64,000 nt of DNA from a bacterium (GTDB lineage: Bacteria > UBA10199 > 2-02-FULL-44-16 > JAAZCA01): positions 50,262 through 114,261 of the forward strand of contig JBAZOP010000002.1 in assembly GCA_041648665.1 (NCBI GenBank), in the 5' to 3' direction. Numbering within the stretch: the stretch's first letter is position 1; every line of letters starts with the position of its first letter. Below, piece by piece: positions 6,051-60,126 of this stretch. Position numbers and translations under genes: made by a program. The notes beneath the pieces were generated by a model. The model saw only the letters and a list, made by a program, of their open reading frames with translations, had not been told where the DNA came from and did no database searches.

Positions 6051-6053
6051 TCG

Positions 6054-6666: not shown

Positions 6667-6918
6667 CTAATCGTACCCGTCGGTGGCCTGCCCGGCCCTA
6701 TCCCGCACGCGGAGCCGCCGCGCCATCCCGTGCGCCAGCGCGGCCCTCCGGTGGCCCCAGCCCAGCGAGCCCGGCCCCCCCGCACGCGGGGGGTGCGCGC
6801 CGCCACGTGGCGAGAGCGACGCCCGGATCTCGCCCTGCGTCCGAACCGCCCACTGCCGCACGGGCCGGCCCCATCCCAGGGCCGCACGCACCGTCCGGAG
6901 CAGCGGGGAACGTAGCAT
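6667..6918 (-). CDS. Arg-rich small protein (83 aa)
   Basis: Internal ATG preceded by the strong SD TAGGAGGGG about 9 nt upstream. Otherwise a GC-rich region. Confidence 0.3.
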   Translation of the reverse strand: MLRSPLLRTVRAALGWGRPVRQWAVRTQGEIRASLSPRGGAHPPRAGGPGSLGWGHRRAALAHGMARRLRVRDRAGQATDGYD

Positions 6919-6931
6919 CGTCCTGCCCCTC

Positions 6932-7363: not shown

Positions 7364-7398
7364 GGTAGCCCTCCCGCCGCGCATCCTACGCGGCATGC

Positions 7399-10859: not shown

Positions 10860-10896
10860 TTCAATTATAACCAGTCGGTATGCGTTTGTCAACATA
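10860..10896 (-). promoter_or_regulatory. consensus sigma70 promoter, TTGACA, 17 nt, TATAAT (conserved motif family)
   Basis: ATGTTGACAAACGCATACCGACTGGTTATAATTGA on the minus strand. Confidence 0.6.
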
Positions 10897-12594: not shown

Positions 12595-13403
12595 GCGCTG
12601 CCCTCCGCGCGCTCCAGGACCACCGCGCCCATGCTGAGGTCGTCATCGTGGCGCCATCCCCGCTGAGCGGCCTTCCGCAGGAACGCCTGGAGGCGCCGCT
12701 GCACAAACACGCCCTGGAGCCCCTTGAACGCCATCAACTCGCCCACGATCACCTCAGAGGGGATGGGCTGGTGGTCCGCATCCAGGAAGGAGCGCACACC
12801 ATCGCTGAACACAGCCACGACGGCGGCGTCCTCGATGGTCCGCTGGAAGGGCTGCACGCCCCGGCATCGCAGCTCCTCGCCATCCGGGCCACGCGCCACC
12901 CACTCCTCACGCTGCAGCACGGCCGCCATGCGCTGGTCGTCCACGAGGTAGTTGGCGTAGCGAGGGTATCCGTCGGGAGCCTCAACTTCCCAGATCCGCA
13001 GGGCGCCCCCCGGGTCCCGGGCGGCGATCACGCCGTCCCCGGTGCACGAGACGAAGGCCGAGGATCTTTGGCCCAGGGCGAAGACCAACGTGGCGTCCAT
13101 CGCCAATGGGTCCAGATTCCAGCACGTTTTCTGGAACAGACGGCGCCGGAGGTCGATCACCTCCATGGCGCCCCAACACCACCACGCGGGATCTGCCATG
13201 GAAGAAATGCGGCCTATTCCAACCTCGCAGCTCAGGGTGAGCAGCCGCGCGCCAACGTCCGTGTCGGGGCTGCCCGAGCAGCCGTCCGAGACGATGGCGT
13301 AGGGGCGGCCCTCTTGCGTCCGTCCGCACCGGGCGTAGTCCTGGCAGACCCGGTGGGCCGCCCCGATGACGTAGGCGCTGTCCGCGTTCGCCCGCATCTC
13401 CAT
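12591..13403 (-). CDS. PP2C-family Ser/Thr protein phosphatase
   Basis: Start MEMRANAD overlaps the vWA stop as TGATG. SDGCSG and SDGVRSF motifs, and a C-terminal DDLSMGAVVL typical of PPM phosphatases. The upstream track extension is GC-rich low-complexity sequence. Confidence 0.65.
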   Translation of the reverse strand: MEMRANADSAYVIGAAHRVCQDYARCGRTQEGRPYAIVSDGCSGSPDTDVGARLLTLSCEVGIGRISSMADPAWWCWGAMEVIDLRRRLFQKTCWNLDPLAMDATLVFALGQRSSAFVSCTGDGVIAARDPGGALRIWEVEAPDGYPRYANYLVDDQRMAAVLQREEWVARGPDGEELRCRGVQPFQRTIEDAAVVAVFSDGVRSFLDADHQPIPSEVIVGELMAFKGLQGVFVQRRLQAFLRKAAQRGWRHDDDLSMGAVVLERAEGSA

Positions 13404-14155
13404 CAGAGGCTGAAGGACATCGGCTGCGAGGGGCCGCCGGTTCCGAGCGCCTGGGACTGGGCGCTGATGCTCTTGCTCACGAAGGCCGCCAACTTGGCCA
13501 GCGTCCGCGCGCTCGCGTCCTTGGTCTCGACGTACTGTCCGATCCCAGCCTCCTGCTGGAAGGCGACCAGGGCGCCGCTCACCTGCGGGTCGTTGCCCAC
13601 CCCGACGCCCACCAGGATGGACACCTGGCTCTCCAGCGCCTCGGACTGGATGGCGCGCTCCAGCTGCGCCCGCACCTGCCCCGGGCCCCCCGCGGAGGCG
13701 TTGTCGCAGCCGTCGGAGATGATCACGGCCACCCCGTTCACGGCGTAGTCGCTGCCGACCAGGGTACGCGCGTAGTCGGCCTGCGCGTGCACGGCGTGCT
13801 CCGCCGCGTCGAACAGCGCCGTCATGCCGCCGCACGACAGGCAGCCGCGGTAGTCGTCGAGGTTGCAGTTGGCGAGCAGCTTGAAGCCGTGCACCTCCCG
13901 CATGTGGTCGTTGAAGGTGATCATCCGCAGCATCAGGTTGTCGGCCCGGGGAGACAGCTTGCAGGCGTTGACCACCTCGCGGATGGCCTGCTCCATATCC
14001 GCAGCGTAGGGCCCCACGGACCCGCTCACGTCCACGGCCAGCGTGACCAGGGTGTACTCGGCCGCCCCCAGGGCGTCCAGGCGCGTGGCGCTGTACCCGA
14101 ACGCGGTGGTCGGGAGCGCGCGCTCCTCCATGGACAGGTCGTTGATCTTCGGCAT
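13403..14155 (-). CDS. von Willebrand factor A (vWA, TerY-like) domain protein
   Basis: MIDAS motif LAVDVSGSVG. SD GAGGGAA. Start at MPKINDL (M137 of the track ORF). Confidence 0.65.
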   Translation of the reverse strand: MPKINDLSMEERALPTTAFGYSATRLDALGAAEYTLVTLAVDVSGSVGPYAADMEQAIREVVNACKLSPRADNLMLRMITFNDHMREVHGFKLLANCNLDDYRGCLSCGGMTALFDAAEHAVHAQADYARTLVGSDYAVNGVAVIISDGCDNASAGGPGQVRAQLERAIQSEALESQVSILVGVGVGNDPQVSGALVAFQQEAGIGQYVETKDASARTLAKLAAFVSKSISAQSQALGTGGPSQPMSFSL

Positions 14156-14187
14156 CGGTTCCCTCGCCTTCCTGCTAGCGCACCGCG

Positions 14188-14991
14188 CTAGCGCAGCACG
14201 TCCACCGTGGTCGACGTCTGCATCCCCTTCGCCGTCATTTCGGCGACGAAGTCCTCTTGGAGCTTCTCGAACCCGGGCACCGGGCTGAGAGCGTCGGTGA
14301 GCAGCACGAACTTCTGGACGTAGTCCGCGCTGCTGAACCCGGCCGCCACGTCCCGGATCGTGTTGGCGACGCAGTGGCTGCCCGCCTCGCCCGCGATCAG
14401 GATCAGGTCCGCCTCCTCCAGCGCCTGGATGAGGCGCAGGTTGATCTGGGTCGACGGATCTGCCGGGTCCGGCACCTCGGCCTTCACCCCGGAGTAGTGC
14501 TCCGTGAACAGGTTGCTGCCCTTGCTCACGAAGTCGATCACGCCCGGGCCCGCGGCCGCCCAAGCGTTGAGCGCCTCCAGCACGGCCGGCACCAGGGTGG
14601 CGCCCGGGCTACCGATCAGGCAGTGCGGGGGCCAGATGCACAGCGGGTACCGGTGTCCGGCCTCCAGCGCGCGCACGTAGTCGAGCATGCGGCGCGTGAG
14701 GCTGGGGATGCACGGCGTCCAGGCGCCGCTCTCCACGTCCTGTGGCGTGATGATCGTGAACGGCGTCGGCGGCTGGCCGTCGGGCCCGCGCCACATGGCC
14801 GGGTGCGCCACGTCCAGCAGGTGATGCTGGTCGAGCGTCGCGTGGATGTCGTGCAGCCGCGCCCCCAACCGCTGGACCATGGCGGCCACGCGCTGCATGT
14901 CCTCCGCGGCGCCAGGCACGAACAGCGCCCCAGTAGGGTCGCAGAAGTCGTGCTGCGCGTCGATCAGGAACAGGTCCACCTTCTTCGTCAT
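14188..14991 (-). CDS. pncA: nicotinamidase PncA (isochorismatase/cysteine-hydrolase family)
   Basis: DLFLIDAQHDFCDP matches the isochorismatase N-motif. DIHATLDQHH are metal-binding His. IWPPHCLIGSPGA matches the PncA signature WPPHCV. Catalytic Cys in GEAGSHCVANT. Confidence 0.7.
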   Translation of the reverse strand: MTKKVDLFLIDAQHDFCDPTGALFVPGAAEDMQRVAAMVQRLGARLHDIHATLDQHHLLDVAHPAMWRGPDGQPPTPFTIITPQDVESGAWTPCIPSLTRRMLDYVRALEAGHRYPLCIWPPHCLIGSPGATLVPAVLEALNAWAAAGPGVIDFVSKGSNLFTEHYSGVKAEVPDPADPSTQINLRLIQALEEADLILIAGEAGSHCVANTIRDVAAGFSSADYVQKFVLLTDALSPVPGFEKLQEDFVAEMTAKGMQTSTTVDVLR

Positions 14992-15003
14992 CGGATCCTC
15001 CTC

Positions 15004-15753
15004 TCAGGCCGGCTCCCGCCGGAAATGCGGCGGCACGCAACGCTTGTGCGCGCTCACCGTGTGCAACTCGTCGATCTTCCGCGCCACCTCCACCTCGATG
15101 GCCTCCCCGCGCAGGTAGGCGTCGATGGCGCCGTACACGTTGGACGTTCCCAGGATGCCCCCCAACTCTTCTTGGTCGGTCTGGCCGATCCAGAGGCCAG
15201 CCGTCGGGGGACGATCTACCAGCGCCTCCGGCAGCCCAAGCAGCCGCCCCAGCTGGCGCACCTCGCCCTTGTCGAACGCGAGGAGCGGCTCCAGGTCCAC
15301 CCCGTGATCGCCGTACTTCGTGGCGTACCCAATGTACGCCTCGGCCGCGTTGGTCGTGCCCACCACGAGGCCACCACGGTGGTTCGCCACCGCGTAGAGG
15401 GCCACCATGCGCAGGCGCGCCTGCATGTTGCCGCAGGTCAACGCGTTCAGCAGGGGATCACCTGTTGCGAAGCGCAGCTCCTTCTCCATCGCCTCGTATG
15501 CGCTGCGGATGTTCACCGGGAGCGCGTCCGCGGTGCACCCCAGGTGCTTCACCAGCGTGTTCGTCCACCGCACATCCGGGTCGGCCCCACACGGCATCCG
15601 GACCAGGACCGTGTGATCGCGGCCTACCGCGCGCACACACAACGCAGCCACCACGGAGGAGTCCACCCCCCCGCTGATGCCCACCACGGCGCGGTGTAGG
15701 CCGCTTAGCAGATGCTCCCGCAGCCAGCCGCACAGGGCATCCACGTCGCCCAT
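15004..15753 (-). CDS. nadE: NH3-dependent NAD+ synthetase NadE
   Basis: PP-loop GISGGVDSS. The C-terminal half of the track ORF is the real gene. The ATG lies 2 nt after the PncB stop. Confidence 0.75.
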   Translation of the reverse strand: MGDVDALCGWLREHLLSGLHRAVVGISGGVDSSVVAALCVRAVGRDHTVLVRMPCGADPDVRWTNTLVKHLGCTADALPVNIRSAYEAMEKELRFATGDPLLNALTCGNMQARLRMVALYAVANHRGGLVVGTTNAAEAYIGYATKYGDHGVDLEPLLAFDKGEVRQLGRLLGLPEALVDRPPTAGLWIGQTDQEELGGILGTSNVYGAIDAYLRGEAIEVEVARKIDELHTVSAHKRCVPPHFRREPA

Positions 15754-15755
15754 CG

Positions 15756-16928
15756 TCACGCACCCACGAGTCCCAGCGCCTGCTTGCATCGCTCCACCTC
15801 CTCTGGATCTCCCGAGTGCTTCGTGGGCACATCGGACAGCTTGACCGCGGGGCGCCACGGATTGGTCGGCCACGCCCGCGCCCGCGTCATCTTGATAACC
15901 ATGTTGAGGGGCCGCACCCCCGGGACGTCGCAGGTCAGCGACGTGCCAAGGAGGAACCGCGCCCCGATGCGTCCCTCCATCGCTGACCGAATCGCCTGGA
16001 CGTCGTCCAGGCCCAGGCCGTCGGAGAAGACCATGACCTTCGACCGTGGGTCGATGCCGAGCCGCTCGTAGTGGGCGATCACCTGCTGCGCGCACAGGAG
16101 CGGATCCCCAGAGTCCTGCCGCACGCCGTCGTAGATCCGCGCCCGGAGCCCGTTGAAGGCCCGCAAGAACACCGGCGTCGTGTAGGTGTCCAGGAGCCCG
16201 ATCCCGAGCGCTCCCCGGTAGGTCTCCACCCAGCGGTCGAGCGCGATCGCCGTCGCCTCCTCGTAGCCGAGGATTGCGCCATGGTACATGGTCCACTCGT
16301 GCGCCACGGTGCCCACGCAGGGGAGCCCCATCTCCAGTGCCATGCCCACGTTGCTGGTGGGGATGTTCAGGGCCGCGAGGACCCGCTGGTGTATCTCCCG
16401 CGAGAAGCGGCGCCGCGTGCCGCCCTCGACCACCGGCAGTTGATCCCGGCGGATGAGCAAGCCCTTGGCCGCCGCCCGGTTCACTACGTCCGCGTCGCGG
16501 GCGGGCAGGCTGCCCCCGTGCGACAGCAGGTGGTAGCGCTCGGAGATCAGCGCCATCAGCGGAACCTCCCAGAGCACGGTGCGCAGCCATGGACCGCGCA
16601 CGATCAGACGCAGACGGCGCTCCTCGTCCAAGCTGCACTCCACGATCTCGGACGGGTCGAAGCGGTAGCGCGCCAAGAAGGAGCGGTACCACGGCTGCAC
16701 CGGCAGGACGCGCCCCAGGCCGTCAACCTCGGACTCGGTGAGCGCTGGAGCCGCGACCAGCTCCTCATCGATCCAGCTGCGCAGCTGGGCAAAGGCGGCA
16801 GGCCACGCCACAGGCGTCCGCACGATCAGCTCGTACTCCGCCTCCGCCTGGGGGTAGTGCTGCCCGATGGCTTGCTGCATCGAAAACTTGTAGAGGTCGG
16901 TATCGAGCAAGTGCATCACACGCTCCAT
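15756..16928 (-). CDS. pncB: nicotinate phosphoribosyltransferase (PncB/NAPRTase family)
   Basis: N-terminal LLDTDLYKFSMQQA is the NAPRTase signature. 390 aa. Confidence 0.75.
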   Translation of the reverse strand: MERVMHLLDTDLYKFSMQQAIGQHYPQAEAEYELIVRTPVAWPAAFAQLRSWIDEELVAAPALTESEVDGLGRVLPVQPWYRSFLARYRFDPSEIVECSLDEERRLRLIVRGPWLRTVLWEVPLMALISERYHLLSHGGSLPARDADVVNRAAAKGLLIRRDQLPVVEGGTRRRFSREIHQRVLAALNIPTSNVGMALEMGLPCVGTVAHEWTMYHGAILGYEEATAIALDRWVETYRGALGIGLLDTYTTPVFLRAFNGLRARIYDGVRQDSGDPLLCAQQVIAHYERLGIDPRSKVMVFSDGLGLDDVQAIRSAMEGRIGARFLLGTSLTCDVPGVRPLNMVIKMTRARAWPTNPWRPAVKLSDVPTKHSGDPEEVERCKQALGLVGA

Positions 16929-16957
16929 TCCCGTTCGTTCATGCCTCTACGCCTGAT

Positions 16958-17536
16958 TCACCTGATGGACGCCGTGGCCCCGGCCTCGGCCAGGAGCCTC
17001 ACCGCCCGATCCGCCTCCTCCTTCGACACGCCCATCATCACCGTCGAAGGGGCGCAGTCGGTGAGGTCTTTGGAGTCCTTCAGCCCCAGGCCGGTCAACT
17101 CCCGGATCTCCTTGATGACGTTGATCTTCCTTTCGCCCACCATCTGCAAGATCACGTCGTACTTCTGCTCGGCAGATCCCGGGTGCAACCCCGCGTCCAC
17201 CTCTTTCAGGAACGCAGGCACATCGACAACGCTGCCACGCAGGTCGGCGATGGCCGCGAGGAGGCGCAGGTGATCGATCGGATCCGGCATTCGCAACCTG
17301 TCGAGGATGTCGGCGACACGCTCCCTCTGCTCGTCATCCTCCATCGCCTCCTTGGCGAGGATGCTTCTCTGTTCCTCCAAATCGTAGATTTTCTCGCGGA
17401 ACGCATCGTTCTCCGCCCGGAGTTGCGGGAGATGCTCCCGGAGGGTCGCGATCTCCGCTTCCATCTCGTCCGCCGTCTGCTGCTTCTTCTTCTTCTCGGC
17501 CATGGCATCCTCCTGTTTCGTTGTTTTGCTACCCAC
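16958..17536 (-). CDS. coiled-coil protein with ribosomal protein bL12 (L7/L12) C-terminal-domain homologue
   Basis: The C-terminus KINVIKEIRELTGLGLKDSKDLTDCAPSTVMMGVSKEEADRAVRLLAEAGATASI aligns with the L7/L12 CTD ([47 protein letters not shown]). The N-terminus is charged coiled coil. Confidence 0.6.
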   Translation of the reverse strand: MGSKTTKQEDAMAEKKKKQQTADEMEAEIATLREHLPQLRAENDAFREKIYDLEEQRSILAKEAMEDDEQRERVADILDRLRMPDPIDHLRLLAAIADLRGSVVDVPAFLKEVDAGLHPGSAEQKYDVILQMVGERKINVIKEIRELTGLGLKDSKDLTDCAPSTVMMGVSKEEADRAVRLLAEAGATASIR

Positions 17537-18807: not shown

Positions 18808-18843
18808 GGATAGCTTAACCCGTTGTTATGCGTTTGTCAACAG
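18808..18843 (-). promoter_or_regulatory. promoter, TTGACA, 17 nt, TAAGCT (conserved motif family)
   Basis: CTGTTGACAAACGCATAACAACGGGTTAAGCTATCC on the minus strand. Confidence 0.5.
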
Positions 18844-18876
18844 AGAAAAAAGAAAAAAGCGCACACGTGTTCGCGC
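18844..18876 (-). terminator. intrinsic terminator: palindrome GCGCGAACACGTGTGCGC followed by a U-tract (TTTTTTCTTTTTT)
   Basis: On the minus strand the 18-bp palindrome is immediately followed by a 13-nt T-rich run and then the next promoter. Confidence 0.5.
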
Positions 18877-18881
18877 GCGGA

Positions 18882-19190
18882 TCAGGCGAACTTCTTGGCC
18901 ACGGCCTCGGCCATGCGGTTGACCTCGTCGGCGTACTTGCGGAGGGCGGGCACGAGGATGCTGTTGAACAGGTCCGGGGCCGCGCGGGTGGGCAAGCCAA
19001 TGCGCGAGTAGCCGTCCAGCTTCCGCTTTGCATTCGCGAACGCCGGCTGCAGGATCCGCTCCGCCTTGCTCTCCAGGGTATCGTACAGCTGCTTCGGATG
19101 CTCGATCATGCGACGCGCCTCGTCCTGCGGGTCCGGCGCATCCGGATCGACGGACGTCGCTTCCATCAACTGCTCGATCAGATGTCGCAT
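18882..19190 (-). CDS. MRHLIEQL-family small protein (paralogue 1)
   Basis: N-terminus MRHLIEQLMEA is shared with four other proteins in this window. Confidence 0.5.
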   Translation of the reverse strand: MRHLIEQLMEATSVDPDAPDPQDEARRMIEHPKQLYDTLESKAERILQPAFANAKRKLDGYSRIGLPTRAAPDLFNSILVPALRKYADEVNRMAEAVAKKFA

Positions 19191-19199
19191 GTGGTCCTC

Positions 19200-19532
19200 C
19201 TACGAGCGTCCAAGCGCCATCTTCGCTGCGTCGGTCCCGGGGGCGCGCAGCCTCTTCCCCACCTGTCTCCAGAGCACCTTCCAGGCCAGGTCCAGGACGG
19301 CGTCGGACCGCGGGCTGTCTATGCCTCCAGGAACAAGAGAAAAGATCTCTCCCTCCATGTCGCCCTCGAACTCCTCCATCGCGTTCTCGATGGCCGCCAC
19401 CAGCTTGTCCGCGAAGGGGCCCACCAGCCCCACCAGGTCCTTGGCCAACACGGTGCTGCTCGCCATCCCCTCGACCACGGAGGCGCTACCGTCGCGCATC
19501 ACGAAGTCGATCTGCTCGATCAGCCGTCTCAC
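19200..19532 (-). CDS. MRHLIEQL-family small protein (paralogue 2; GTG start, M-RRLIEQIDFV)
   Basis: The GTG start overlaps the upstream stop as GTGA. The track N-terminal extension is low-complexity. Confidence 0.45.
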   Translation of the reverse strand: MRRLIEQIDFVMRDGSASVVEGMASSTVLAKDLVGLVGPFADKLVAAIENAMEEFEGDMEGEIFSLVPGGIDSPRSDAVLDLAWKVLWRQVGKRLRAPGTDAAKMALGRS

Positions 19533-19894
19533 GACGCCACCATGCGCACGATCACGGGGTTGGCCGGGGCCACGACGCCCGCGGTGCCCGGGCTGGTCAC
19601 GCAGGCGAACGACAGGTGCGCGAAGCCCCACCCCTCGGGGACCACCACGCTGCGGCGCTGGTTGGCCGGCACGCGCACGACCAGCTCGGGCGCCGTCGTG
19701 CCCACGGTGGGCGCCGCGCTGTCGTACACCTTCAGGCACGCCTGATCAGCCGGGTTGCCCGTGTTGTCCACGTCGATCATGTAGAGGGTGCCCGCGCCGC
19801 CGGTCACGTCCGTGTCCGGCGTGACGCCCGCGCCCGTCTCCACGATCAGCTTGCTCCCCACCGGGGAGACCTGAGTCGAAACCGAAAGTGCCAT
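19529..19894 (-). CDS. hypothetical protein, possibly structural
   Basis: SD GAGAAGGA downstream of the TTGACA-17-TAATGT promoter. Ala/Val/Gly/Thr-rich beta-type composition. Confidence 0.45.
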   Translation of the reverse strand: MALSVSTQVSPVGSKLIVETGAGVTPDTDVTGGAGTLYMIDVDNTGNPADQACLKVYDSAAPTVGTTAPELVVRVPANQRRSVVVPEGWGFAHLSFACVTSPGTAGVVAPANPVIVRMVAS

Positions 19895-19911
19895 TTTTCA
19901 ATCCTTCTCGC

Positions 19912-19947
19912 ACCCACATTATCATATGGGTTTGCGTTTGTCAACCA
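19912..19947 (-). promoter_or_regulatory. promoter, TTGACA, 17 nt, TAATGT (conserved motif family)
   Basis: GGTTGACAAACGCAAACCCATATGATAATGTGGG on the minus strand. Confidence 0.5.
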
Positions 19948-20576
19948 TCCTGGCGCCACATGACGGCCTCGACGTCCAGGGTGGCGGGGACCCAGACCTC
20001 CCAGCGGGCGCTCGCCCAGGTGGTGCCGCGGGCCTCCTCGACCCAGGGCGCCCCCAGGGCCATCCGCGCCACCTCCGCGCCCCCCAGCCGCCACGCGCCG
20101 CGGTGGCCCCAGCCCACCAGCCGCCACAGGAAGTCCTCGGGGGTCAGCAGCCGCGTGAACGCGCTCCGCACCCGCTCCGCCCGCTCCTCGCCAACGGCCC
20201 GCAGCGCGGCCCCCAGGGCGAACCGCGCGCCGTCGTCGCAGGGGCTCGGGGCCGCCTGCGCCATGAACATCTCCGTCACCGCGCCGTCCACGCTCACGCC
20301 CGCGCCCCCGGCCCGGCTGGGGTGCACGTCGAACCGCGCCTCGCAGCGCACGCTGCCGTCCGCCTGGGGCGCCTGGCTGATGCGCTGGAGCACGCACGCC
20401 TCGGCGTCCCCCAGGGTCACCCGCAGCGGCGGCGGCCCGTCCGCCCAGCGCTCCCCATTGGGCAGCACGCCCTCGCGCAGCAGCCGGAGCGCCGCGCGGT
20501 AGGCCGGCGTCTCCACGAGGTCGGGCGTGCCGACCACCCGGAGCGCTGCCTCGCCCAACCGCCGAAGTCGTCCCAC
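19941..20576 (-). CDS. hypothetical protein
   Basis: 211-aa ORF. ATGA overlap with the upstream gene. Confidence 0.45.
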   Translation of the reverse strand: MGRLRRLGEAALRVVGTPDLVETPAYRAALRLLREGVLPNGERWADGPPPLRVTLGDAEACVLQRISQAPQADGSVRCEARFDVHPSRAGGAGVSVDGAVTEMFMAQAAPSPCDDGARFALGAALRAVGEERAERVRSAFTRLLTPEDFLWRLVGWGHRGAWRLGGAEVARMALGAPWVEEARGTTWASARWEVWVPATLDVEAVMWRQDG

Positions 20577-20578
20577 GG

Positions 20579-21220
20579 CTACGCCTCCCCTTCCAGCATG
20601 GCCAGCAGGCGTCCCATAGATCCCGCGTTGCTCTCCGCCACGTTCTTGCCCGCCGTGCTGATGCTCAGCGCGCCGCTCTTGGATCGCTTCAGCAACCCAC
20701 GCCGCACCAGCGCGTCCACCTCCGCAGGCTGCACGCGCTCGTGATCGAACACCTCCTTGCGCGCCGACGAGATGAGGCTCCGGATCGTGCGCAGGATCAT
20801 CTGCTCCCGGGGCGTCACCTCAGCGCCGGCCGGCAGCAGCGGCGCCAGGGCGTCCGGGTGCACGTAGACCGTGGCCATGGTCCGCGGGTGGCCCTGCGTG
20901 CCGACGACGATGGCGCCCCCAGGCGGGATGCGCACCGGCTTGTTGGCGAAGTCGATCTCCTGCGGGTCGTCCGGCCGCGCGCCCCCCCATCCGCCCCCGA
21001 GGTCGCGCGCGCGCCCGCTGGCGAGGTCCACCACCAGCACGAACCCCTTCTGGCCCTCCCCCGCGTAGGGGTTGGGCACCACGCTCTCCTGCGGCACCAC
21101 CGCGATGTCCGCCGCGCGGTACTCCACGCGCTTCAGCGCCGCCCGCAGGCTCGCTGGCAGATCACGCAGGGGCAGGTGTACCTGCCGCGCTTCCGTCATC
21201 CGCTGTAGCAAGTCCCGCAT
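20579..21220 (-). CDS. hypothetical protein
   Basis: Start taken at MRDLLQRM with SD GGAGGCGAG. The track start is a GTG inside the palindrome. Confidence 0.45.
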   Translation of the reverse strand: MRDLLQRMTEARQVHLPLRDLPASLRAALKRVEYRAADIAVVPQESVVPNPYAGEGQKGFVLVVDLASGRARDLGGGWGGARPDDPQEIDFANKPVRIPPGGAIVVGTQGHPRTMATVYVHPDALAPLLPAGAEVTPREQMILRTIRSLISSARKEVFDHERVQPAEVDALVRRGLLKRSKSGALSISTAGKNVAESNAGSMGRLLAMLEGEA

Positions 21221-21257
21221 GTCCGATCTCGCCTCCGTGCTGGCGAACACGTGTTCG

Positions 21258-21746
21258 CTACGCCCTCACCTCGCCCGCGATATCCTTCAGCTCGCCCGCC
21301 GCCTGCTCCAGGTCCCGCGCGAACGACGCTGCCATGTCCCGCGTGAACCGCGATCTGCCCACGTTGTCGGCGTAGGCCCGCGCCTTCTCGATGGCCCGCT
21401 CCAGCGTGGCCCGGATGCCCGCCGCCGTGATCGCCTCGTCCAGTCCCTCGGCCGCCAGCCGCCCCCGCACCGGGGGCGTGATGTCCACCACGGCCAGCTC
21501 GGTGTCGAAGATGGCCTTGGCCAGCCGGTCCAGGGCGTCCAGGGCGACCCGGAGCGCCCGCTTCACCTGCGGGCTGGCGGAGGCCACCTCCTCCTCCGGC
21601 TCCCCCTTGGCGATGGCCCGCATGGCCAGATCCCCCGCGAAGTTGCGCACCCGGCTCCCGAAGTCGTACACCTGCGCCTTGCGCACGTCGCGCGGGCCCA
21701 GCCGCTTGAATGCCGCCTCTTCCAACTGGCGTAGCAGTGATCGCAT
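21258..21746 (-). CDS. MRHLIEQL-family protein (paralogue 3; MRSLLRQLEEA)
   Basis: Internal ATG. Shares the family N-terminus. Confidence 0.45.
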   Translation of the reverse strand: MRSLLRQLEEAAFKRLGPRDVRKAQVYDFGSRVRNFAGDLAMRAIAKGEPEEEVASASPQVKRALRVALDALDRLAKAIFDTELAVVDITPPVRGRLAAEGLDEAITAAGIRATLERAIEKARAYADNVGRSRFTRDMAASFARDLEQAAGELKDIAGEVRA

Positions 21747-21759
21747 GGTACAACCTACC

Positions 21760-22044
21760 TCATTCGAAGGGCGCCCCATGGTCGAATTCCTTGGACCACA
21801 CCTTCTCCGCGAAGACTGGGAGCGCCTTGCAGGCAAACATCAGGTGCTCCTGGAGCGCGTCCAGCTCCTTCTCCGGCAGATCGGCCTCCACGATCCGGTC
21901 GATCAGGTCCCGCACCTGCCCCTCGATCTCGGCCCGCAGGTCGCGGACCGCCTTGGCCAGCGTGCGGAAGTTGTCGCGCCCCTCCGCCAGCGCCCCGGGG
22001 CGCCCGGTCACGGCCTCGTTGAGTTGATCGACCAGGTGTCGCAT
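21760..22044 (-). CDS. MRHLIEQL-family protein (paralogue 4; MRHLVDQLNEA)
   Basis: Internal ATG. ATGA overlap with 22047..22643. Confidence 0.45.
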   Translation of the reverse strand: MRHLVDQLNEAVTGRPGALAEGRDNFRTLAKAVRDLRAEIEGQVRDLIDRIVEADLPEKELDALQEHLMFACKALPVFAEKVWSKEFDHGAPFE

Positions 22045-22046
22045 CG

Positions 22047-22643
22047 CTACTCCTCCCATCCGTGAGCTTTGTTCCATTTGGTGGCTGCGTCCATGGCAAC
22101 GTCCCAGATCCAGTGCGTATCGTCATCCAGCCACTCGTCATGCCCCAGATCGTGCGCGACGTTCTCCGCGATCTGCGTCGCGTTGGCTTCCTCGTCATCT
22201 TCCAGGTCGCGCAGCTCGCGGGTCGCAGCCGCCTGCGCCTTGCGGATCAACGCGAACTGCTTCTGCTTCCACGCCTCCTGGTCCTTCTTAAAGCGCAAGC
22301 CGTCCGCGGCGCCCCACCCGCGCGGCAGAGTCAGGAAACGCTCCAGCGTTCCCTCCTCCAGCCGCCGCAGTAACTGATCCATGCTCTCTTCTTTCCCCTT
22401 CCGGCCGCGCTGCACGGCCCGCTCGAAGGCGCCCGCCTTCGCCCCCATGTCATCCTGGCCCTTGAAGTGCTTCTCGCGAGCGGCCCCCCGGGGCGTCTGC
22501 GTGCGCGCCCCCGGCTGGCTGTACCCGCTCTTCTGGCTCTGCGCCGTGCAGATGGCGAAGGCCGCGCCCAGGTCCTTCCCCTGACCGCTGACGTCCGCCA
22601 CGCACCGCTGCATGAACCGTGATTGCTTGCGGGGACCGGGCAT
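22047..22643 (-). CDS. hypothetical charged protein
   Basis: 198-aa ORF. Confidence 0.45.
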   Translation of the reverse strand: MPGPRKQSRFMQRCVADVSGQGKDLGAAFAICTAQSQKSGYSQPGARTQTPRGAAREKHFKGQDDMGAKAGAFERAVQRGRKGKEESMDQLLRRLEEGTLERFLTLPRGWGAADGLRFKKDQEAWKQKQFALIRKAQAAATRELRDLEDDEEANATQIAENVAHDLGHDEWLDDDTHWIWDVAMDAATKWNKAHGWEE

Positions 22644-54681: not shown

Positions 54682-55425
54682 CTAGCTGCGGGCCGCGCCC
54701 TTCAGCTCGCGCGCGCCCTTGGAGAGCACCCCTGCCGACACCGTGGCCCCGGCCGCCGCCAGCGCCTTGGCCACCAGCGCCTCCAGCGGGCCCTGGATCA
54801 TGCCCGCGAACATCTGCGCCTGCCCCTCGTCGTCGAAGGTCCGGGTGAGCAGCACCTCCAGCTTGGGCGCCCCCAGCATGGCCTCCGCCATCCGCCCCAC
54901 GACGCCCGCGCTGACCGCCTCGTCCACGCCATCCAGCTCGCGCAGGATGTCCTCGAAGCGAACCCCCATTGGGGCGCGCGCCGGAGCGGATGGCGCAGCA
55001 GCACCGGGCCTCTGGGCAACTGTCTTCTTCTCTGCCTTCCTCTTTTTCTCCCGAGCCTTGTTCACTTTGAGCAAGGTATTTTTTTGCCCCCGTTCAAAGT
55101 GACCGACCACACTGGCCTTCACACACTTCCCGAAGACCATCTTCATTCCAGGCGGACACCCGCGCCCCAGCGCCTCGTCCATCTCCTCCTGCGTCGCCCC
55201 CGGAGCCGCCCCCTTGGCCCGGGCGATCTTGGCGCACAGCGCCTCCGGGTCGTCCACGCCGCCCTTACAGCGCATAAACTCGACGCAGCTCTGGAAGCGC
55301 TCCCCCTTCTCCCCCTTGAACCGGCCCGTCTCCGAGTCGATGTACTTGGCCTTGCACGGCTCGTCGGCCTCGGCCATCAGCACTTCCACCTCGACCTGCT
55401 CCAGGATCTCTCGCATGCTTCCCAT
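54682..55425 (-). CDS. Lys/Ala-rich protein (paralogue of 58320..59156)
   Basis: Shares PG(M/T)KMVFGK(C/I)VK and an acidic N-terminus (VEVLMAEADE vs ALALLMEADGD). Confidence 0.45.
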   Translation of the reverse strand: MGSMREILEQVEVEVLMAEADEPCKAKYIDSETGRFKGEKGERFQSCVEFMRCKGGVDDPEALCAKIARAKGAAPGATQEEMDEALGRGCPPGMKMVFGKCVKASVVGHFERGQKNTLLKVNKAREKKRKAEKKTVAQRPGAAAPSAPARAPMGVRFEDILRELDGVDEAVSAGVVGRMAEAMLGAPKLEVLLTRTFDDEGQAQMFAGMIQGPLEALVAKALAAAGATVSAGVLSKGARELKGAARS

Positions 55426-57053: not shown

Positions 57054-57359
57054 TCAGATCTTCCCGGCCTTGCGCTTCGCGCTCAGCTCCCGCCGCAGCC
57101 CCTCCGGACTGGTGTCCTTCTTCCGGGCCTTCTTCATGGCCTTCGGCATGCCAAGTGGCTCCCCGCCGTCGTCCGGGAAGAAGATCTCGCTGCCGTTCAC
57201 CGTGCGCCAGTGCCCCTTCTTGCCCTGGAACTCCCACGTGTCGTCGCCGACCTTCTTGGAGACCGTCCTGCGCTTGGCCTTCCGCAGCGCATTCCAGAGC
57301 TTCTCCGCGCCCCCCGCCTCCTCCAGCGCCTCGAACACCTGCTCCATCGTCACCGACAT
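57054..57359 (-). CDS. hypothetical basic protein
   Basis: 101-aa ORF. Confidence 0.4.
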   Translation of the reverse strand: MSVTMEQVFEALEEAGGAEKLWNALRKAKRRTVSKKVGDDTWEFQGKKGHWRTVNGSEIFFPDDGGEPLGMPKAMKKARKKDTSPEGLRRELSAKRKAGKI

Positions 57360-57363
57360 GGCA

Positions 57364-58278
57364 TCACCCTGCTTTCCAGGAGGCGAAGAGCTTCTGGGCC
57401 TGCTTCAGCATGGCCTCCAGCGCGTCCACCTCCTCGTCGTGCTGCTTGTTCAGCTCCTCGCGCTCGCGCTTGTCCTTGGCATCCATCGGCGTCCCAGCCC
57501 CGTAGATGCGCGCCCGCAGATGCTGGATCTCCTGCCAGTGCCGCTGCAGCTCGGACAGCGCAAGCGAGAACCGCGCCCCCTCCCGGCTCTCCTCCATCAG
57601 CGCCCGCTTGGGATCGGCCGCCGCCGCCTCTGGGATCGTCACGCGCACGGTCTTCCCCGCGCTGTGCTTCACCGGGTAGGTCGGCACCCGGCCCGAGTTG
57701 CTGAACCACGCCCGCACGCCGTCCAGCAACGCCTGGGCCTTGTCCTCCAGCGCGTGCATGGCAGCCTCGTGCTGCTTCCAGTTCTTTTTGGCCTCCTGCA
57801 GCGCGACCTCCTTCCACGCATCGCCCAACCCATTCACGATGCTAGCCAGTGCGGCCTGGGACCCGTGCGACGCTTCTGGCGCTGGCACGCCAGCCAGCGA
57901 TGCCAGATCCTTGGCGATCCACTTGCCGTCCCGCGCGCTGTCAAGCACCCTTCGAACAGCCCGGTCGATCTTGAACTTGTCGATGGGCTTGTCAGACGGA
58001 AGCTCGTCGATCACGGCATCCGCGAAGTGGCGGCCGCCCTTCCCATCCAGGAACTCCCGGATGGCCTTGGATGGGATGCCCTGATACTTCTGCACGAACA
58101 CCCGGAACGCTCCGTTCCACGCCTCATCCGGAGGTACAGATCCAGACGGAGCGTCTGATAGTCTGCTCGACATTGTCCCGAAGAACCCCCACGACGTGTT
58201 CTCCGTGGGCAACACCTGCCCCTGCCGCTTCCCTACCGCTTCGCAGATCTGCTGCCCCAGCTGCCGCAACGTTCCCAT
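57364..58278 (-). CDS. hypothetical protein
   Basis: Start taken at MGTLRQLGQQ with SD AAAAAGGAGAAG. The track start is a GTG inside the palindrome. Confidence 0.45.
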   Translation of the reverse strand: MGTLRQLGQQICEAVGKRQGQVLPTENTSWGFFGTMSSRLSDAPSGSVPPDEAWNGAFRVFVQKYQGIPSKAIREFLDGKGGRHFADAVIDELPSDKPIDKFKIDRAVRRVLDSARDGKWIAKDLASLAGVPAPEASHGSQAALASIVNGLGDAWKEVALQEAKKNWKQHEAAMHALEDKAQALLDGVRAWFSNSGRVPTYPVKHSAGKTVRVTIPEAAAADPKRALMEESREGARFSLALSELQRHWQEIQHLRARIYGAGTPMDAKDKREREELNKQHDEEVDALEAMLKQAQKLFASWKAG

Positions 58279-58319
58279 CAGCTTCTCCTTTTTCTCAGCG
58301 AACACGTGTTCGCCATCTA

Positions 58320-59156
58320 CTACGCGCGCTCCTCCAGCACACGGAACACGTCCTCCATCGACTCCTTGCGGACCCGCGCCTTCCCCTTGCTCCTCCCCTT
58401 GGGCGCCGCCCCGCGCTTGGGCGCCACGGCCGGCGCACCCTTCTTCTTGCCCGGGGCCGCCCCCTTCTTAGCGGGGGCCTTCCGGGCGCCCTTCGCGGGC
58501 GCCGCAGCGGCCTGGGGAGCCCGCTTCTTGGCCGGCGCCTTCGCCGCGCCGCCCGGGCCGTACGACGCCGCCCGGGCTCCCTTGCCCGCTCGCTCCTGCG
58601 CGCGCGCGGCCTGCCCGGACGCGAACGCGTGCGTCTCGCCTGCCCGGGACGCCGCTTGGTAGGTCCCCTTGGCCGCCGCGTAGGACGCCTTGCCAGCGGC
58701 CCGCCCCTTCACGTCGCGCACCTTCTTGGCCGCCTGCCGGGCCTGCTTGCCCGCCTGTGTGAAGCGGAAGCTGTGCGCCTGCACCCCCCGCTTGGCCGTG
58801 ACGGCCGCCTTGCCCACGGCCTTGGCCGCGCCCGCGACCCCCTTGCCCACCTTCACGATCTTGCCGAAGACCATCTTGGTCCCGGGCGGCAGCTTCTTCT
58901 TGACGGCCGCCGCCTTGCCCTTGAGCCAGCTGCCCAGCCCCTCCAGCGCCAGCTCCTGCTGCGCCGTCAGCGGGCCATCCGCAGCCGCCTCCAGCAGGTC
59001 CGCCAGGAAGTCCAGCCGATCCGCGTCCGCCTCCTCGAAGAGATCTGCCAGCATGTCGCCGTCCGCCTCCATGAGGAGCGCCAGCGCCTCCTCCCCCTCG
59101 ACCTCGAACAGCGGCCCCCCCTCGATTCCCTCAAACACGTCCTGCATCGTCCTCAT
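58320..59156 (-). CDS. histone H1-like Lys/Ala/Pro-rich protein
   Basis: AKAPAKKRAPQAAAAPAKGARKAPAKKGAAPGKKKGAPAVAPKRGAAPKGRSKGKARVRK. Acidic N-terminal domain. Paralogue of 54682..55425. Confidence 0.45.
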   Translation of the reverse strand: MRTMQDVFEGIEGGPLFEVEGEEALALLMEADGDMLADLFEEADADRLDFLADLLEAAADGPLTAQQELALEGLGSWLKGKAAAVKKKLPPGTKMVFGKIVKVGKGVAGAAKAVGKAAVTAKRGVQAHSFRFTQAGKQARQAAKKVRDVKGRAAGKASYAAAKGTYQAASRAGETHAFASGQAARAQERAGKGARAASYGPGGAAKAPAKKRAPQAAAAPAKGARKAPAKKGAAPGKKKGAPAVAPKRGAAPKGRSKGKARVRKESMEDVFRVLEERA

Positions 59157-59166
59157 GGCGACCCTC

Positions 59167-59634
59167 CTACTCTGCTTCCTCTTGTAGCGCACGCGCCGCT
59201 AGCTGGTCCAGATCCTTCGGCAACGAAGCCGCGCGCGCTGGCATGGGCGCAGCAGTCACGGGCACTACCTCCACCACCGGAGGAACCGCTCCCCCCTGGC
59301 CAGCCCCGGCCACCATGGGCATCCGCATGTAGCCCGTGCTCACAGACGCACGCTGGAGCAACATCGCGTTCACCGTCTCGCGCAATGCAGTTTCCGCAGC
59401 ATCCATCCGCTCCATGCGCTCGCACATCGACTCTATGCGCGCCTTCAGCAGCTGGTACGCCACATCCGCCTTGGCCTCCGCCTTGTCATCCGTGTCGTCC
59501 AAGAATTCCCAGAACCCTGGCACCCCCATGGCCGCCACAAGAAGGACTGCAACCGTAGGGAGCCCAGCACGCTTCAACATGGAAGCCTTCTCCGCGATCT
59601 CGGAAATTCCACTCTGCTTGTCGGTCTTCGCCAC
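59167..59634 (-). CDS. membrane protein (possible holin/spanin-type lysis accessory protein)
   Basis: TM helix LPTVAVLLVAAMGVPGFW. Confidence 0.4.
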   Translation of the reverse strand: MAKTDKQSGISEIAEKASMLKRAGLPTVAVLLVAAMGVPGFWEFLDDTDDKAEAKADVAYQLLKARIESMCERMERMDAAETALRETVNAMLLQRASVSTGYMRMPMVAGAGQGGAVPPVVEVVPVTAAPMPARAASLPKDLDQLAARALQEEAE

Positions 59635-59646: not shown

Positions 59647-60126
59647 CTAAACTTCGTCTGGCTCGGTATCGTATCCACCGCACTTCGGACACTTCACCTC
59701 GAACGTGCTCTTGCCCAGCTTCTTCCGAAAGCGCGCGCCACACTCGTTGCACAGCATCCGCGTGCCAACAGCCTCGGCAACGATGTCCTCGCTGACAACC
59801 TTGGTCGCGCCAATGACCACCGTCGTCTCGTCGCTCAGGAAGCCGCCCGTGATGCGGAACAGCACGCCGTCCCCCTGCCGCTCCCACCGCACCTGCACCG
59901 GCCGGTACGCCGGGTCTCCACCCTCCTTCCGGTGGTGGAACTCCGCCACCTCGCGCTCCCGCAGCGGCCCCCGGCCGTTCCACCACTCGCCCCCCAGGCC
60001 GATCTCCAGTGCCCCGTCCAGGGGGTGCCAGATGAAGTCCAGCAGCCCCTTCGTGGCCGCGATGCGCAGCGTCGAGGCGAAGCCCTCGTTCACCGCTCGG
60101 TCCAACTGCTCGATCAAGTGCCTCAT
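59647..60126 (-). CDS. MRHLIEQL-family protein with C-terminal zinc ribbon (paralogue 5)
   Basis: MRHLIEQLDRA N-terminus. CNECG...CPKCGG. Confidence 0.5.
   Translation of the reverse strand: MRHLIEQLDRAVNEGFASTLRIAATKGLLDFIWHPLDGALEIGLGGEWWNGRGPLREREVAEFHHRKEGGDPAYRPVQVRWERQGDGVLFRITGGFLSDETTVVIGATKVVSEDIVAEAVGTRMLCNECGARFRKKLGKSTFEVKCPKCGGYDTEPDEV

What the first reader, a model, noticed from the sequence alone, without database searches (positions are those of the whole stretch)
18882..22044. Family of five small paralogous proteins sharing the N-terminus MR(H/R/S)L(I/V/L)(E/D/R)QL
Proteins starting MRHLIEQLMEA (18882..19190), M-RRLIEQIDFV (19200..19532), MRSLLRQLEEA (21258..21746), MRHLVDQLNEA (21760..22044) and MRHLIEQLDRA (59647..60126, with an added zinc ribbon). 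Two pairs are adjacent tandem duplicates. A conserved N-terminal octapeptide on otherwise diverged 95-160 aa proteins suggests a shared targeting, docking or processing signal, or a rapidly diversifying family (anti-defence or host-takeover style) kept by recombination at the shared 5' end.
Basis: seen in the sequence. Interest (0 to 1): 0.6.

Follow-up and report, generated by a model that had tools for sequence, protein, structure and literature searches.

The report
Shared N-terminal capsid-targeting-like tag
Eight or so unrelated small proteins of an uncultured T4-like phage all begin with the same 10-residue helix (MRxLIEQLxEA), which most likely works like phage T4's capsid targeting sequence to load them into the head, and so marks which proteins this phage probably packages.

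Summary
All five ORFs exist at the stated coordinates and start with M-R-x-L-(I/L/V)-x-Q-(L/I). That core occurs nowhere else in a real coding frame of the window. Three more genes carry it: 20579-21220, 54682-55416 and, weakly, 22047-22382.

The "paralogous family / tandem duplicates" reading fails. Beyond about residue 12 the proteins show no similarity. The tag codons differ synonymously, so selection acts on the peptide, not on a recombining DNA end.

The window is part of a 161-kb contig of a T4-related myovirus. Its own major capsid protein is Gp23-type. Relatives carry a T4 portal and a gp21-type (S77) prohead protease. In those relatives the same tag heads at least 20 unrelated protein families.

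The tag matches the pattern of T4's CTS and propeptides (hydrophobic at 4 and 8, E at 6 and 10, I/L-x-E protease sites). A profile built from the tags ranks T4 gp67, IPII/IPIII and Alt near the top of T4 N-termini. This clade's capsid protein itself starts with the motif (…AREILEQ…).

Best explanation (about 0.6, not shown experimentally): a CTS-like head-targeting and processing signal. This is a new member of a known kind, of moderate interest.

The parts
18882..19190 (-). P1, 102 aa, tag MRHLIEQLMEA (I/L-x-E at residues 4-6 and 8-10)
   Evidence: ORF and RBS. Identical to NCBI MFA4971249.1 / WC683_01465 on a 161,166-bp contig. Orthologues are present in L012/L013. In L045 the orthologous body starts at residue 75 of a longer ORF and is preceded there by the tag-like MGSILKKMEEA.
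19200..19532 (-). P2, 110 aa, GTG start, tag (M)RRLIEQIDFV
   Evidence: The start codon sits in a GTGA overlap with the stop of the 121-aa gene 19529-19894. In relative L045 the syntenic gene starts MRHLIEKMEQIVRDDS after an ATGA overlap but has a different body.
20579..21220 (-).
   Evidence: Five orthologues are 45-48% identical, with M1, R2, L4, L5, R7 and E10 invariant. The L045 orthologue is 63% identical.
21258..21746 (-). P3, 162 aa, tag MRSLLRQLEEA
   Evidence: Orthologues P0003-P0005 are 66-74% identical, with tags MRTLLKALEEA, MREIFDRIEEA and MRTLLEKLQS. The AF2 model is all-alpha but low confidence.
21760..22044 (-). P4, 94 aa, tag MRHLVDQLNEA; an internal second copy of the motif (VRDLIDRIVEAD) starts at 21915
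   Evidence: No orthologue was found in L045.
22047..22382 (-). P7, 111 aa, weak tag MDQLLRRLEEG. It is in frame, with no stop, with an upstream Cys-containing domain (22383-22643), so the tag may be internal to a 198-aa product.
   Evidence: PSSM 12.2, at noise level. The orthologue is a separate gene in L045. In L045 the upstream domain is instead fused in frame to a P3 orthologue.
54682..55416 (-). P8, 244 aa, tag MREILEQVEVE (the ATG lies 3 codons inside ORF 54682-55425). It has the same REILEQ core as this genome's major capsid protein N-terminus.
59647..60126 (-). P5, 159 aa, tag MRHLIEQLDRA, with a C-terminal CxxC...CxxC zinc-ribbon-like end. It sits immediately downstream of the second tail-tube gene.
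   Evidence: Orthologues in L002 and L004 lack the C-terminal part. The exact protein also occurs on a Logan contig. The AF2 model shows helix 3-13 plus a beta body, at low confidence.
57054..59192 (-). Genes with looser tag variants: 58320-59192 (Lys/Ala-rich basic protein, MRTMQDVFEGIEGG) and 57054-57359 (MSVTMEQVFEALEEA). The intervening gene 57364-58305 carries no tag.
   Evidence: The L002 orthologues start ...MREIFEGTQG and ...MAQVFEAVELV. These were not scored as members by the PSSM.
18860..19944 (-). Transcription context of P2 and P1: a sigma70-like promoter (TTGACAAACGC at 19934-19944, with an ATAATG -10-like element) upstream of the 121-aa gene, and an intrinsic terminator at 18860-18879 after P1

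Best explanation
The shared N-terminus is an address tag, not the remnant of a gene family. It is a short amphipathic helix with consensus M-R-x-(L/I)-(I/L/V)-E-(R/Q/K)-(L/I/M)-(E/D)-E-A.

Proposed mechanism (inferred, not shown):
- The helix docks otherwise unrelated small proteins onto the scaffolding core of a T4-type prohead, in the way the capsid targeting sequence (CTS, MKTYQEFIAE) does for T4 internal proteins IPII and IPIII. IPI, Alt, gp24 and gp67 carry comparable N-terminal propeptides.
- Where an I/L-x-E site is present, the gp21-type (S77) prohead protease clips the tag off after Glu6 or Glu10.
- The tagged proteins are therefore predicted to be prohead-core components and/or internal head proteins that travel with the DNA into the host.

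Shown here:
- the tag and its significance;
- its peptide-level conservation on non-homologous bodies;
- T4-type head genes in the lineage;
- the same motif at the N-terminus of the capsid protein;
- pattern similarity to T4 CTS and propeptides.

Inferred: docking to the core, cleavage, packaging and ejection.
For: 1. Tag on unrelated bodies. There is no similarity after about residue 12. In relatives whose sheath is 43-71% identical (60% or more in the loci that carry tags), the tag heads at least 20 BLAST-unrelated families.

2. Peptide-level selection. Codons vary synonymously and relatives span 50-68% GC.

3. T4-type head machinery.
- This genome's own MCP (P0066 = WC683_02060, on a contig of the same 161,166-bp length as P1 and P3) is Pfam Gp23.
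- A relative whose contig also carries the sheath and tagged genes has Gp23 at E=3e-68.
- L035 has T4 portal at E=2e-66 and Peptidase_S77 at E=9e-13.

4. T4 precedent.
- The CTS is about 10 aa, is shared by diverse internal proteins, and is cleaved once by gp21 (PMC8442874, PMC3012670).
- gp21 cuts after E in L/I-x-E. In IPIII, targeting depends on residues 4 and 7 and processing on residues 8 and 10. Asp10 blocks cleavage but not targeting (PMC9026906, PMC12991175).
- In 36 non-redundant tags, positions 2, 4, 5, 7 and 8 are the most conserved. E6 occurs in 24/36 and E10 in 16/36.
- 7 of the 8 window tags contain I/L-x-E.

5. T4 N-termini read from NC_000866 share M-x-x-hydrophobic-x-E-x-hydrophobic-x-E: IPII/III MKTYQEFIAE, Alt MELITELFDE, gp24 MAKINELLRE, gp67 MEGLIEAIKS. 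A PSSM built only from this clade's tags ranks gp67 first, IPIII/IPII 6th-7th and Alt/Alt.-1 9th and 11th of 604 Met starts in 80 kb of T4.

6. The capsid protein carries the motif.
- This genome's MCP starts MTEAREILEQG, which scores 10 bits against the tag core (null P 3.4e-4 per position).
- 96 of 112 MCP homologues start ...ARx-hydrophobic-hydrophobic....
- 92 of the 112 have a conserved [L/F/M]-x-E|[D/E/Q]-T site at about residue 66, which is where T4 gp23 is cut.

7. IP-like gene behaviour. The genes are small, clustered and lineage-restricted, with almost no homologues. Bodies are swapped behind the tag at syntenic positions. A tagged gene always follows the tail-tube genes.
Against: - There is no direct evidence that any tagged protein is in the virion.
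- Absolute PSSM scores of the T4 CTS are low (0.7-5.2 bits), so the resemblance is of pattern, not demonstrable homology.
- E10 is present in only 44% of tags and E6 in 67%. P6 has no canonical I/L-x-E.
- The tagged proteins are not uniformly basic like T4 IPs: pI ranges from 4.8 to 9.6.
- Depletion of I/L-x-E in the bodies is slight and not significant: 8 observed versus 10.9 expected.
- P2 and P1 sit behind a sigma70-like promoter, and no T4 late-promoter consensus TATAAATA exists in the window.
- In 3-4 cases the tag lies in frame behind an upstream domain, so it is not always N-terminal.
- For this genome only the MCP, not the S77 protease, could be verified.
Confidence: 0.6

Rival explanations
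1. The proteins are true paralogues from tandem duplications that diverged beyond recognition, except for a functionally constrained N-terminus.
For: The genes are adjacent and co-oriented. P4 contains an internal second copy of the motif. T4 itself has duplicated CTS-bearing genes, alt and alt.-1.
Against: No body similarity was found by BLASTP or Smith-Waterman shuffling. Lengths range from 94 to 244 aa. P3 and P5 fall in different predicted secondary-structure classes, although both models are low confidence. Orthologues 45-74% identical are easily recognised, so bodies are not evolving too fast to detect recent duplicates. The tag also sits on at least 20 unrelated families and on the capsid protein.
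Confidence: 0.1
2. The tag is a docking helix for a different partner or compartment: tail or baseplate assembly, a phage chaperone, the membrane-bound assembly site, or homo- or hetero-oligomerisation among the tagged proteins.
For: The genes lie among tail, baseplate and lysis genes rather than beside the head genes. P5 directly follows the tail-tube genes. The helix is amphipathic, with hydrophobic moment 0.44-0.77 (0.59-0.77 in seven of the eight).
Against: The motif is shared with the capsid protein's propeptide, not with any tail protein in the window. The profile picks T4 prohead-core proteins out of T4 N-termini. Tail, baseplate and sheath proteins of the window lack the motif.
Confidence: 0.17
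3. The tag is an N-terminal degradation or timing signal (a degron or protease recognition site) that does not involve packaging.
For: I/L-x-E motifs could be read by the S77 protease or a host protease. One operon has an early-type promoter.
Against: This does not explain why the capsid protein carries the same motif at the very start of its propeptide. The T4 precedent links such peptides to core binding (PMC9026906).
Confidence: 0.06
4. The conservation reflects an RNA- or DNA-level element at the 5' end of the genes: a translational operator, an initiation enhancer or a recombination site.
For: The tags use AT-rich rare codons (AGA, TTA, TTG, CGA) in genomes with GC3 around 0.9. This is typical of selection for unstructured 5' ends.
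Against: Nucleotides differ at most synonymous sites while the peptide pattern is kept. There is no conserved upstream sequence. The tag is kept across a 50-68% GC range. An exact DNA pattern for one codon version found nothing in IMG/VR.
Confidence: 0.03

Closest known systems
Phage T4 capsid targeting sequence (CTS) of internal proteins IPI/IPII/IPIII, and the N-terminal propeptides of Alt, gp24 and gp67
   Same: Both are peptides of about 10 residues at the extreme N-terminus of otherwise unrelated, small, fast-evolving proteins. Both follow the pattern M-(basic)-x-hydrophobic-x-E-x-hydrophobic-x-E-(A). Both contain I/L-x-E protease motifs. Both occur in phages with a gp20 portal, gp21 (S77) protease and gp23 capsid protein. 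The conserved positions here (4, 5, 7, 8) coincide with the positions shown to matter in IPIII (PMC9026906, PMC8442874).
   Different: The sequence is different (MRxLIE[RQ]LxE versus MKTYQEFIAE), with only pattern-level similarity. Arg2 is nearly invariant. Glu10 is often absent. There are many more carriers per genome (7-8 or more in 64 kb) and at least 20 cargo families in the clade. The cargo is not uniformly basic. The tag also occurs at the start of the major capsid protein and sometimes in frame behind another domain. The function is untested.
Long N-terminal propeptides of phiKZ / 201phi2-1 / SPN3US head and ejection proteins
   Same: Both involve an S77-family protease that cuts after Glu. 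In both, propeptides are thought to target proteins into the prohead. Paralogues gp53 and gp54 of SPN3US share an identical 15-residue N-terminus (PMC5694885).
   Different: Those propeptides are mostly more than 100 residues long with A/S/G-x-E sites. Here the shared element is about 10 residues with L/I-x-E, as in T4.
Phage P1 DarB N-terminal packaging signal
   Same: An N-terminal peptide is sufficient to send a protein into the capsid for delivery into the host (PMC9024508).
   Different: The P1 signal is 30 residues on a single 250-kDa protein, within a stepwise Dar incorporation pathway. It is not a motif shared by many proteins and no T4-type protease is involved.
Encapsulin cargo-loading peptides, and N-terminal packaging signals of extracellular contractile injection systems
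   Same: A short terminal peptide shared by unrelated cargo proteins directs loading into a phage-derived shell or tube.
   Different: The container and terminus differ: encapsulin peptides are usually C-terminal, and eCIS cargo loads into the tube. This comparison rests on my own knowledge and was not tested here.

Membership tests
T4-type capsid targeting sequence / gp21-processed N-terminal propeptide | A short (about 10 aa) N-terminal peptide shared by proteins that are otherwise unrelated | tested here: met
   The tag spans residues 1-11. Bodies show no similarity. At least 20 unrelated families carry it in relatives.
T4-type capsid targeting sequence / gp21-processed N-terminal propeptide | The phage builds a T4-type prohead: gp20 portal, gp21 S77 protease, core/scaffold and gp23 capsid protein | tested here: met
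   The Gp23-type MCP of this genome is P0066/WC683_02060. Relatives have Portal_T4 at 2e-66, Peptidase_S77 at 9e-13 and Gp23 at 3e-68. The protease of this exact genome could not be fetched.
T4-type capsid targeting sequence / gp21-processed N-terminal propeptide | The peptide ends in or contains the protease site L/I-x-E | tested here: inconclusive
   7 of 8 window tags have at least one I/L-x-E in residues 4-10. Over 36 tags, E6 occurs in 67% and E10 in 44%. P6 lacks a canonical site. T4 data show that targeting can persist without cleavage (PMC9026906).
T4-type capsid targeting sequence / gp21-processed N-terminal propeptide | Sequence similarity to the T4 CTS MKTYQEFIAE | tested here: inconclusive
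   Similarity is at pattern level only. The clade PSSM gives IPII/III 0.7 bits and gp67 5.2 bits, yet these rank 6th-7th and 1st of 604 T4 Met starts.
T4-type capsid targeting sequence / gp21-processed N-terminal propeptide | The peptide is necessary and sufficient for packaging into the prohead and is removed on maturation | not testable with these tools
   This needs tag-reporter fusions and N-terminal or semi-tryptic peptide mapping in a cultured member.
T4-type capsid targeting sequence / gp21-processed N-terminal propeptide | The carriers are present inside mature heads and are ejected with the DNA | not testable with these tools
   No proteomic data exist for this uncultured lineage.
   BLASTP alignments are limited to residues 1-13. 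Body Smith-Waterman z is at most 2.4 apart from one spurious pair. There is no common Pfam or PHROG family.
phiKZ-type long head-protein propeptides | Propeptides mostly longer than 100 residues, cut at A/S/G-x-E | tested here: not met
   The shared element here is about 10 residues with L/I-x-E.

The most novel reading that the evidence does not exclude
In this uncultured T4-related clade the tag may be a general, exchangeable "loading cassette". Under this reading, any protein placed behind it, or joined in frame through it to another domain, is delivered into the prohead. Islands of tagged genes then turn over by cargo replacement at the tag boundary. This would give the phage a large, rapidly renewable arsenal of injected (probably anti-defence) proteins, far larger than T4's three IPs. 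The capsid protein's own N-terminus would be the prototype the cargo mimics.
Probability: 0.25. Interest if true: 0.65.

Novelty: new member of a known kind. Interest (0 to 1): 0.5.

Why it matters
If the tag is a capsid-targeting signal, a simple sequence rule reads out the packaged and injected proteome of a whole uncultured T4-related lineage. That proteome is at least 7-8 proteins in this 64-kb window and at least 20 families in relatives. Such proteins act first in infection and in T4 include anti-restriction and host-takeover factors, so they are prime candidates for new anti-defence functions.

It would also show that the CTS principle, so far tested experimentally only in T4 with CTS-like sequences noted in close relatives (PMC9026906), is old and general within the gp23/gp21 head lineage. 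The finding that the capsid protein carries the same motif points to what the tag binds. A second, sequence-distinct tag could also be useful for phage-based protein delivery.

Tried and rejected
- Pfam and PHROGs on the tagged proteins gave nothing significant. P5 has only sub-threshold zinc-ribbon hits.
- PDB sequence searches for P6, the 198-aa ORF and P8 found nothing.
- A DNA search of GenBank phages with the 18-23 kb region gave no match.
- The gp9/10-like protein used as an anchor fetched an unrelated phage, L028.
- A metagenome scan with the P6 family returned only 3 loci.
- An exact-DNA scan of IMG/VR for one codon version of MRxLLERLEE gave 0 hits, because real tags use AGA/TTA/TTG codons. 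A sufficiently degenerate pattern would be too unspecific, so it was not run.
- AlphaFold of P5 (single sequence) and P3 (4 sequences) gave pLDDT of about 50, so no fold searches were run.
- Fetching this genome's own head module by exact look-up of its MCP failed, as did the look-up of the tail-tube protein.
- The T4 late promoter TATAAATA is absent from the window.
- A test for depletion of I/L-x-E sites in tagged bodies gave a weak, non-significant trend.
- The apparent P5-P8 body similarity (z=3.9) is a meaningless low-complexity alignment.


Full report
**What the window is**

The window has 66% GC and nearly all its genes lie on the minus strand. It encodes a contractile-tail module:
- tail sheath at 61820-63964;
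- two T4 gp19-type tube proteins at 60742-61275 and 60130-60714;
- a gp25-like protein, a gp5 OB domain, a T4 baseplate protein, a baseplate wedge subunit and a gp9/10-like protein.

It also encodes an amidase, a nicotinate phosphoribosyltransferase, a PP2C phosphatase and a DnaD-like helicase loader. No GenBank phage matches at DNA level. P1 and P3 are identical to NCBI proteins annotated "MAG: hypothetical protein WC683_01465 / _01490 [bacterium]" on a contig of 161,166 bp. So the window is a piece of an uncultured phage genome deposited as a bacterial MAG contig.

**The observation**

All five ORFs exist as described.
- P1, P3, P4 and P5 start at an ATG behind a GGAGG-type RBS.
- P2 starts at a GTG that overlaps the stop of the preceding gene (GTGA).

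The strict core R-x-L-[ILV]-x-Q-[LIM] occurs seven times in the six-frame translation. Five occurrences are exactly these start codons, and the other two are in non-coding frames. Three more genes carry the motif:
- P6 at 20579-21220 (MRDLLQRMTEA);
- P8 at 54682-55416 (MREILEQVEVE);
- P7 at 22047-22382, weakly (MDQLLRRLEEG).

So P7, P4, P3 and P6 are four consecutive tagged genes. P2 and P1 follow after two untagged genes. Looser variants start the genes at 58320-59192 and 57054-57359.

**It is a tag, not a family**

All-against-all BLASTP aligns only residues 1-13. Smith-Waterman scores of the bodies (residue 13 onward) against 200 shuffles give z of at most 2.4. The one exception, P5-P8, is spurious.
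- Lengths range from 94 to 244 aa and pI from 4.8 to 9.6.
- Pfam and PHROGs find no common family.
- Low-confidence AlphaFold models put P3 as all-alpha and P5 as an N-terminal helix plus a beta body.

True orthologues are easy to recognise: the P6 family is 45-48% identical and the P3 family 66-74%. The lack of similarity between the window's tagged proteins is therefore real.

The tag's codons differ synonymously (CGA/AGG/AGA/CGG for Arg; CTG/TTG/TTA for Leu) and upstream DNA is not conserved. This excludes a conserved DNA or RNA element and a recombining 5' end.

**The tag is a property of a whole phage clade**

The sheath protein retrieved 27 IMG/VR loci that are 43-71% identical to it. 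Sampled loci have between 50% and 68% GC.
- In these loci the same N-terminus, most often MRxL(L/I)ERLxE, heads many ORFs. These fall into more than 20 clusters when bodies are compared by BLASTP.
- In 633 kb of related loci, the core R-x-[LI]-[ILV]-E-[RQK]-[LIM] has 26 distinct N-terminal contexts against 6 internal ones.
- In 36 non-redundant tags the residue counts are: R2 35, L/I4 36, I/L/V5 35, E6 24, R/Q/K7 34, L/I/M8 34, E/D9 23, E10 16 and A11 13.
- The peptide is an amphipathic helix, with hydrophobic moment 0.44-0.77 (0.59-0.77 in seven of the eight).

A closer relative is L045, NCBI JBINNZ010004794.1, 163,743 bp. It has a syntenic island where most genes start with the tag. Several positions are occupied by different bodies behind the same tag. 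The proteins have almost no homologues among 5.8 billion sequences: P1 finds only itself, and P3 finds three besides itself.

**The lineage has T4-type head machinery**

I walked upstream of the sheath on a 176-kb relative contig that also carries tagged genes. This reached a Pfam Gp23 major capsid protein (E=3e-68). In L035 the order is:
- a T4 gp20-type portal (E=2e-66);
- two unknown genes;
- an ORF with a Peptidase_S77 (gp21 prohead protease) domain (E=9e-13) followed by a scaffold-sized C-terminal part;
- the capsid protein.

The capsid protein is 27-31% identical to those of T4-like phages. A database search with it returned this genome's own capsid protein, P0066 = WC683_02060 (Gp23 family). 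Its cluster's longest contig has the same 161,166-bp length as that of P1 and P3.

**Comparison with T4**

In T4 the internal proteins are targeted to the prohead core by a roughly 10-residue N-terminal CTS, MKTYQEFIAE. gp21 then removes it (PMC8442874; PMC3012670; PMC5694885).
- T-even internal proteins are described as a highly diverse set that share only the CTS (PMC3012670).
- gp21 cuts after Glu in L/I-x-E.
- In IPIII, residues 4 and 7 matter for targeting and residues 8 and 10 for processing.
- Asp10 blocks cleavage but not targeting (PMC9026906; PMC12991175).

I read the T4 N-termini from NC_000866:

| Protein | N-terminus |
|---|---|
| IPII / IPIII | MKTYQEFIAE\|A |
| Alt | MELITELFDE |
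| gp24 | MAKINELLRE |
| gp67 | MEGLIEAIKS |
| gp22 | MLKEQLIAEA |

The window's MRHLIEQLMEA has the same layout: a basic residue at 2 (as in the IP CTS), hydrophobic residues at 4-5 and 8, Glu at 6 and 10, and Ala at 11. Seven of the eight window tags contain I/L-x-E.

As a cross-check, I built a PSSM from this clade's tags alone and ran it over 604 Met starts in 80 kb of T4. It ranked gp67 first, IPIII and IPII 6th-7th, and Alt and its duplicate 9th and 11th. Absolute scores are low (0.7-5.2 bits). This supports a shared pattern, not proven homology.

**The capsid protein carries the tag**

This genome's capsid protein begins MTEAREILEQG. This is the REILEQ core of P8.
- It scores 10 bits against the tag core (null P 3.4e-4 per position).
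- Of 112 homologues, 96 begin with ...(A/S)R-x-hydrophobic-hydrophobic.... Their median best score is 4.7, against -9.5 for an internal control segment.
- 92 of the 112 have a conserved [L/F/M]-x-E|[D/E/Q]-T motif at a median residue of 66-67. This lies just before the Gp23 profile match starts and is the position where T4 gp23 is cut (the position of the T4 gp23 cut is from my own knowledge, and the 65-residue propeptide length is from PMC5694885).

So the tag equals the first helix of the capsid protein's propeptide. This ties it to head assembly rather than to tails or translation.

**Most likely mechanism**

The tag is a CTS-like docking helix that brings unrelated small proteins into the prohead core. 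Many copies carry an S77 cleavage site that would release the mature protein. The carriers are then predicted prohead-core or internal (ejected) proteins. Their clustering, rapid turnover and scarcity of homologues parallel T4's IP loci.

All of this is inferred; nothing shows virion association. The evidence against is as follows:
- E10 is often missing.
- The cargo is not uniformly basic.
- The P2-P1 operon has a sigma70-like promoter, and no T4 late-promoter consensus occurs in the window. From my own knowledge, T4 IP genes are also transcribed early and late.
- In three or four ORFs the tag is in frame behind another domain.
- The protease of this exact genome could not be fetched.

I put this explanation at about 0.6. 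The main rival is a docking helix for some other assembly partner (about 0.17). A diverged paralogue family (0.1), a degron (0.06) and an RNA-level element (0.03) are less likely.

**Verdict**

The "targeting or processing signal" part is supported by circumstantial but convergent evidence.

It is best filed as a new member of a known kind: the CTS or propeptide principle of T4, found in a distant uncultured gp23/gp21 lineage with a different consensus and a much larger cargo set. Interest is moderate (0.5). Its main value is a sequence rule for predicting packaged proteins, and a pointer, through the shared capsid-protein motif, to what such tags bind.

Noticed in passing
window minus strand 3804-3814, 7426-7436, 10882-10892, 18830-18840, 19934-19944 (and 924-934 with 2 mismatches); plus strand 52879-52889: The exact 11-mer TTGACAAACGC occurs six times. 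Each copy is followed 11-12 nt later by a TATAAT-like hexamer, so this looks like a family of sigma70-type phage promoters with an extended -35. The copy at 19934 precedes the 121-aa gene, P2 and P1. An intrinsic terminator (18860-18879) follows P1.
   Followed up: partly
window 22383-22643 (-) with 22047-22382; L045:10001-10843, L045:17897-18613, L045:18610-19125: A conserved Cys-containing domain (RFMQRCVADVSGQGKDLGAAFAICTAQSQKSGY) runs in frame, with no stop, into tagged P7. In a relative the same domain runs into a P3 orthologue instead. Two other ORFs in that relative have a tag-like motif in frame behind an N-terminal domain. This could mean internal initiation or polyproteins split at the tag; which one is unresolved.
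   Followed up: partly
window 58320-59192 (-): A protein of about 280 aa with an acidic N-terminal part and a very Lys/Ala-rich, histone-H1-like basic C-terminal part. It has a tag-like start (MRTMQDVFEGIEGG). It shares a PPG(T/M)KMVFGK motif with P8. It may be a DNA-condensing internal protein.
   Followed up: no
window 35700-39700: A low-GC island (52-58% against 66-69% in the flanks). It holds a 1041-aa Cys/Gly-rich repeat protein (36562-39687) and a 175-aa ORF. This is probably a horizontally acquired tail-fibre or receptor-binding module.
   Followed up: no
window 12591-17536 (-): Auxiliary genes next to the tagged island: a nicotinate phosphoribosyltransferase (15756-16928), a protein ending in a ribosomal L7/L12 C-terminal domain (16958-17536) and a PP2C phosphatase (12591-13835).
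   Followed up: no
P0006-P0125 (capsid protein homologues); L032:289-3579 and 3583-7452: Capsid proteins of this clade keep a [L/F/M]-x-E|(D/E)-T motif at about residue 66, which is a predicted maturation site. In one relative the ORF upstream of the portal and the portal ORF are 1096 and 1289 aa, against 682 and 562 aa in another relative, which suggests inteins. A LAGLIDADG domain sits in a neighbouring SNF2 gene.
   Followed up: no
first 10 codons of the tagged genes, window and L002-L024: The tags are written with AT-rich rare codons (AGA, CGA, TTA, TTG, CTA, CAT) in genomes whose GC3 is about 0.9. This is consistent with selection for an unstructured translation start.
   Followed up: no
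window 19529-19894 (-): A 121-aa protein without the tag sits inside the tagged island. It is 77% identical in relative L045, much more conserved than its neighbours, and has no family match.
   Followed up: no
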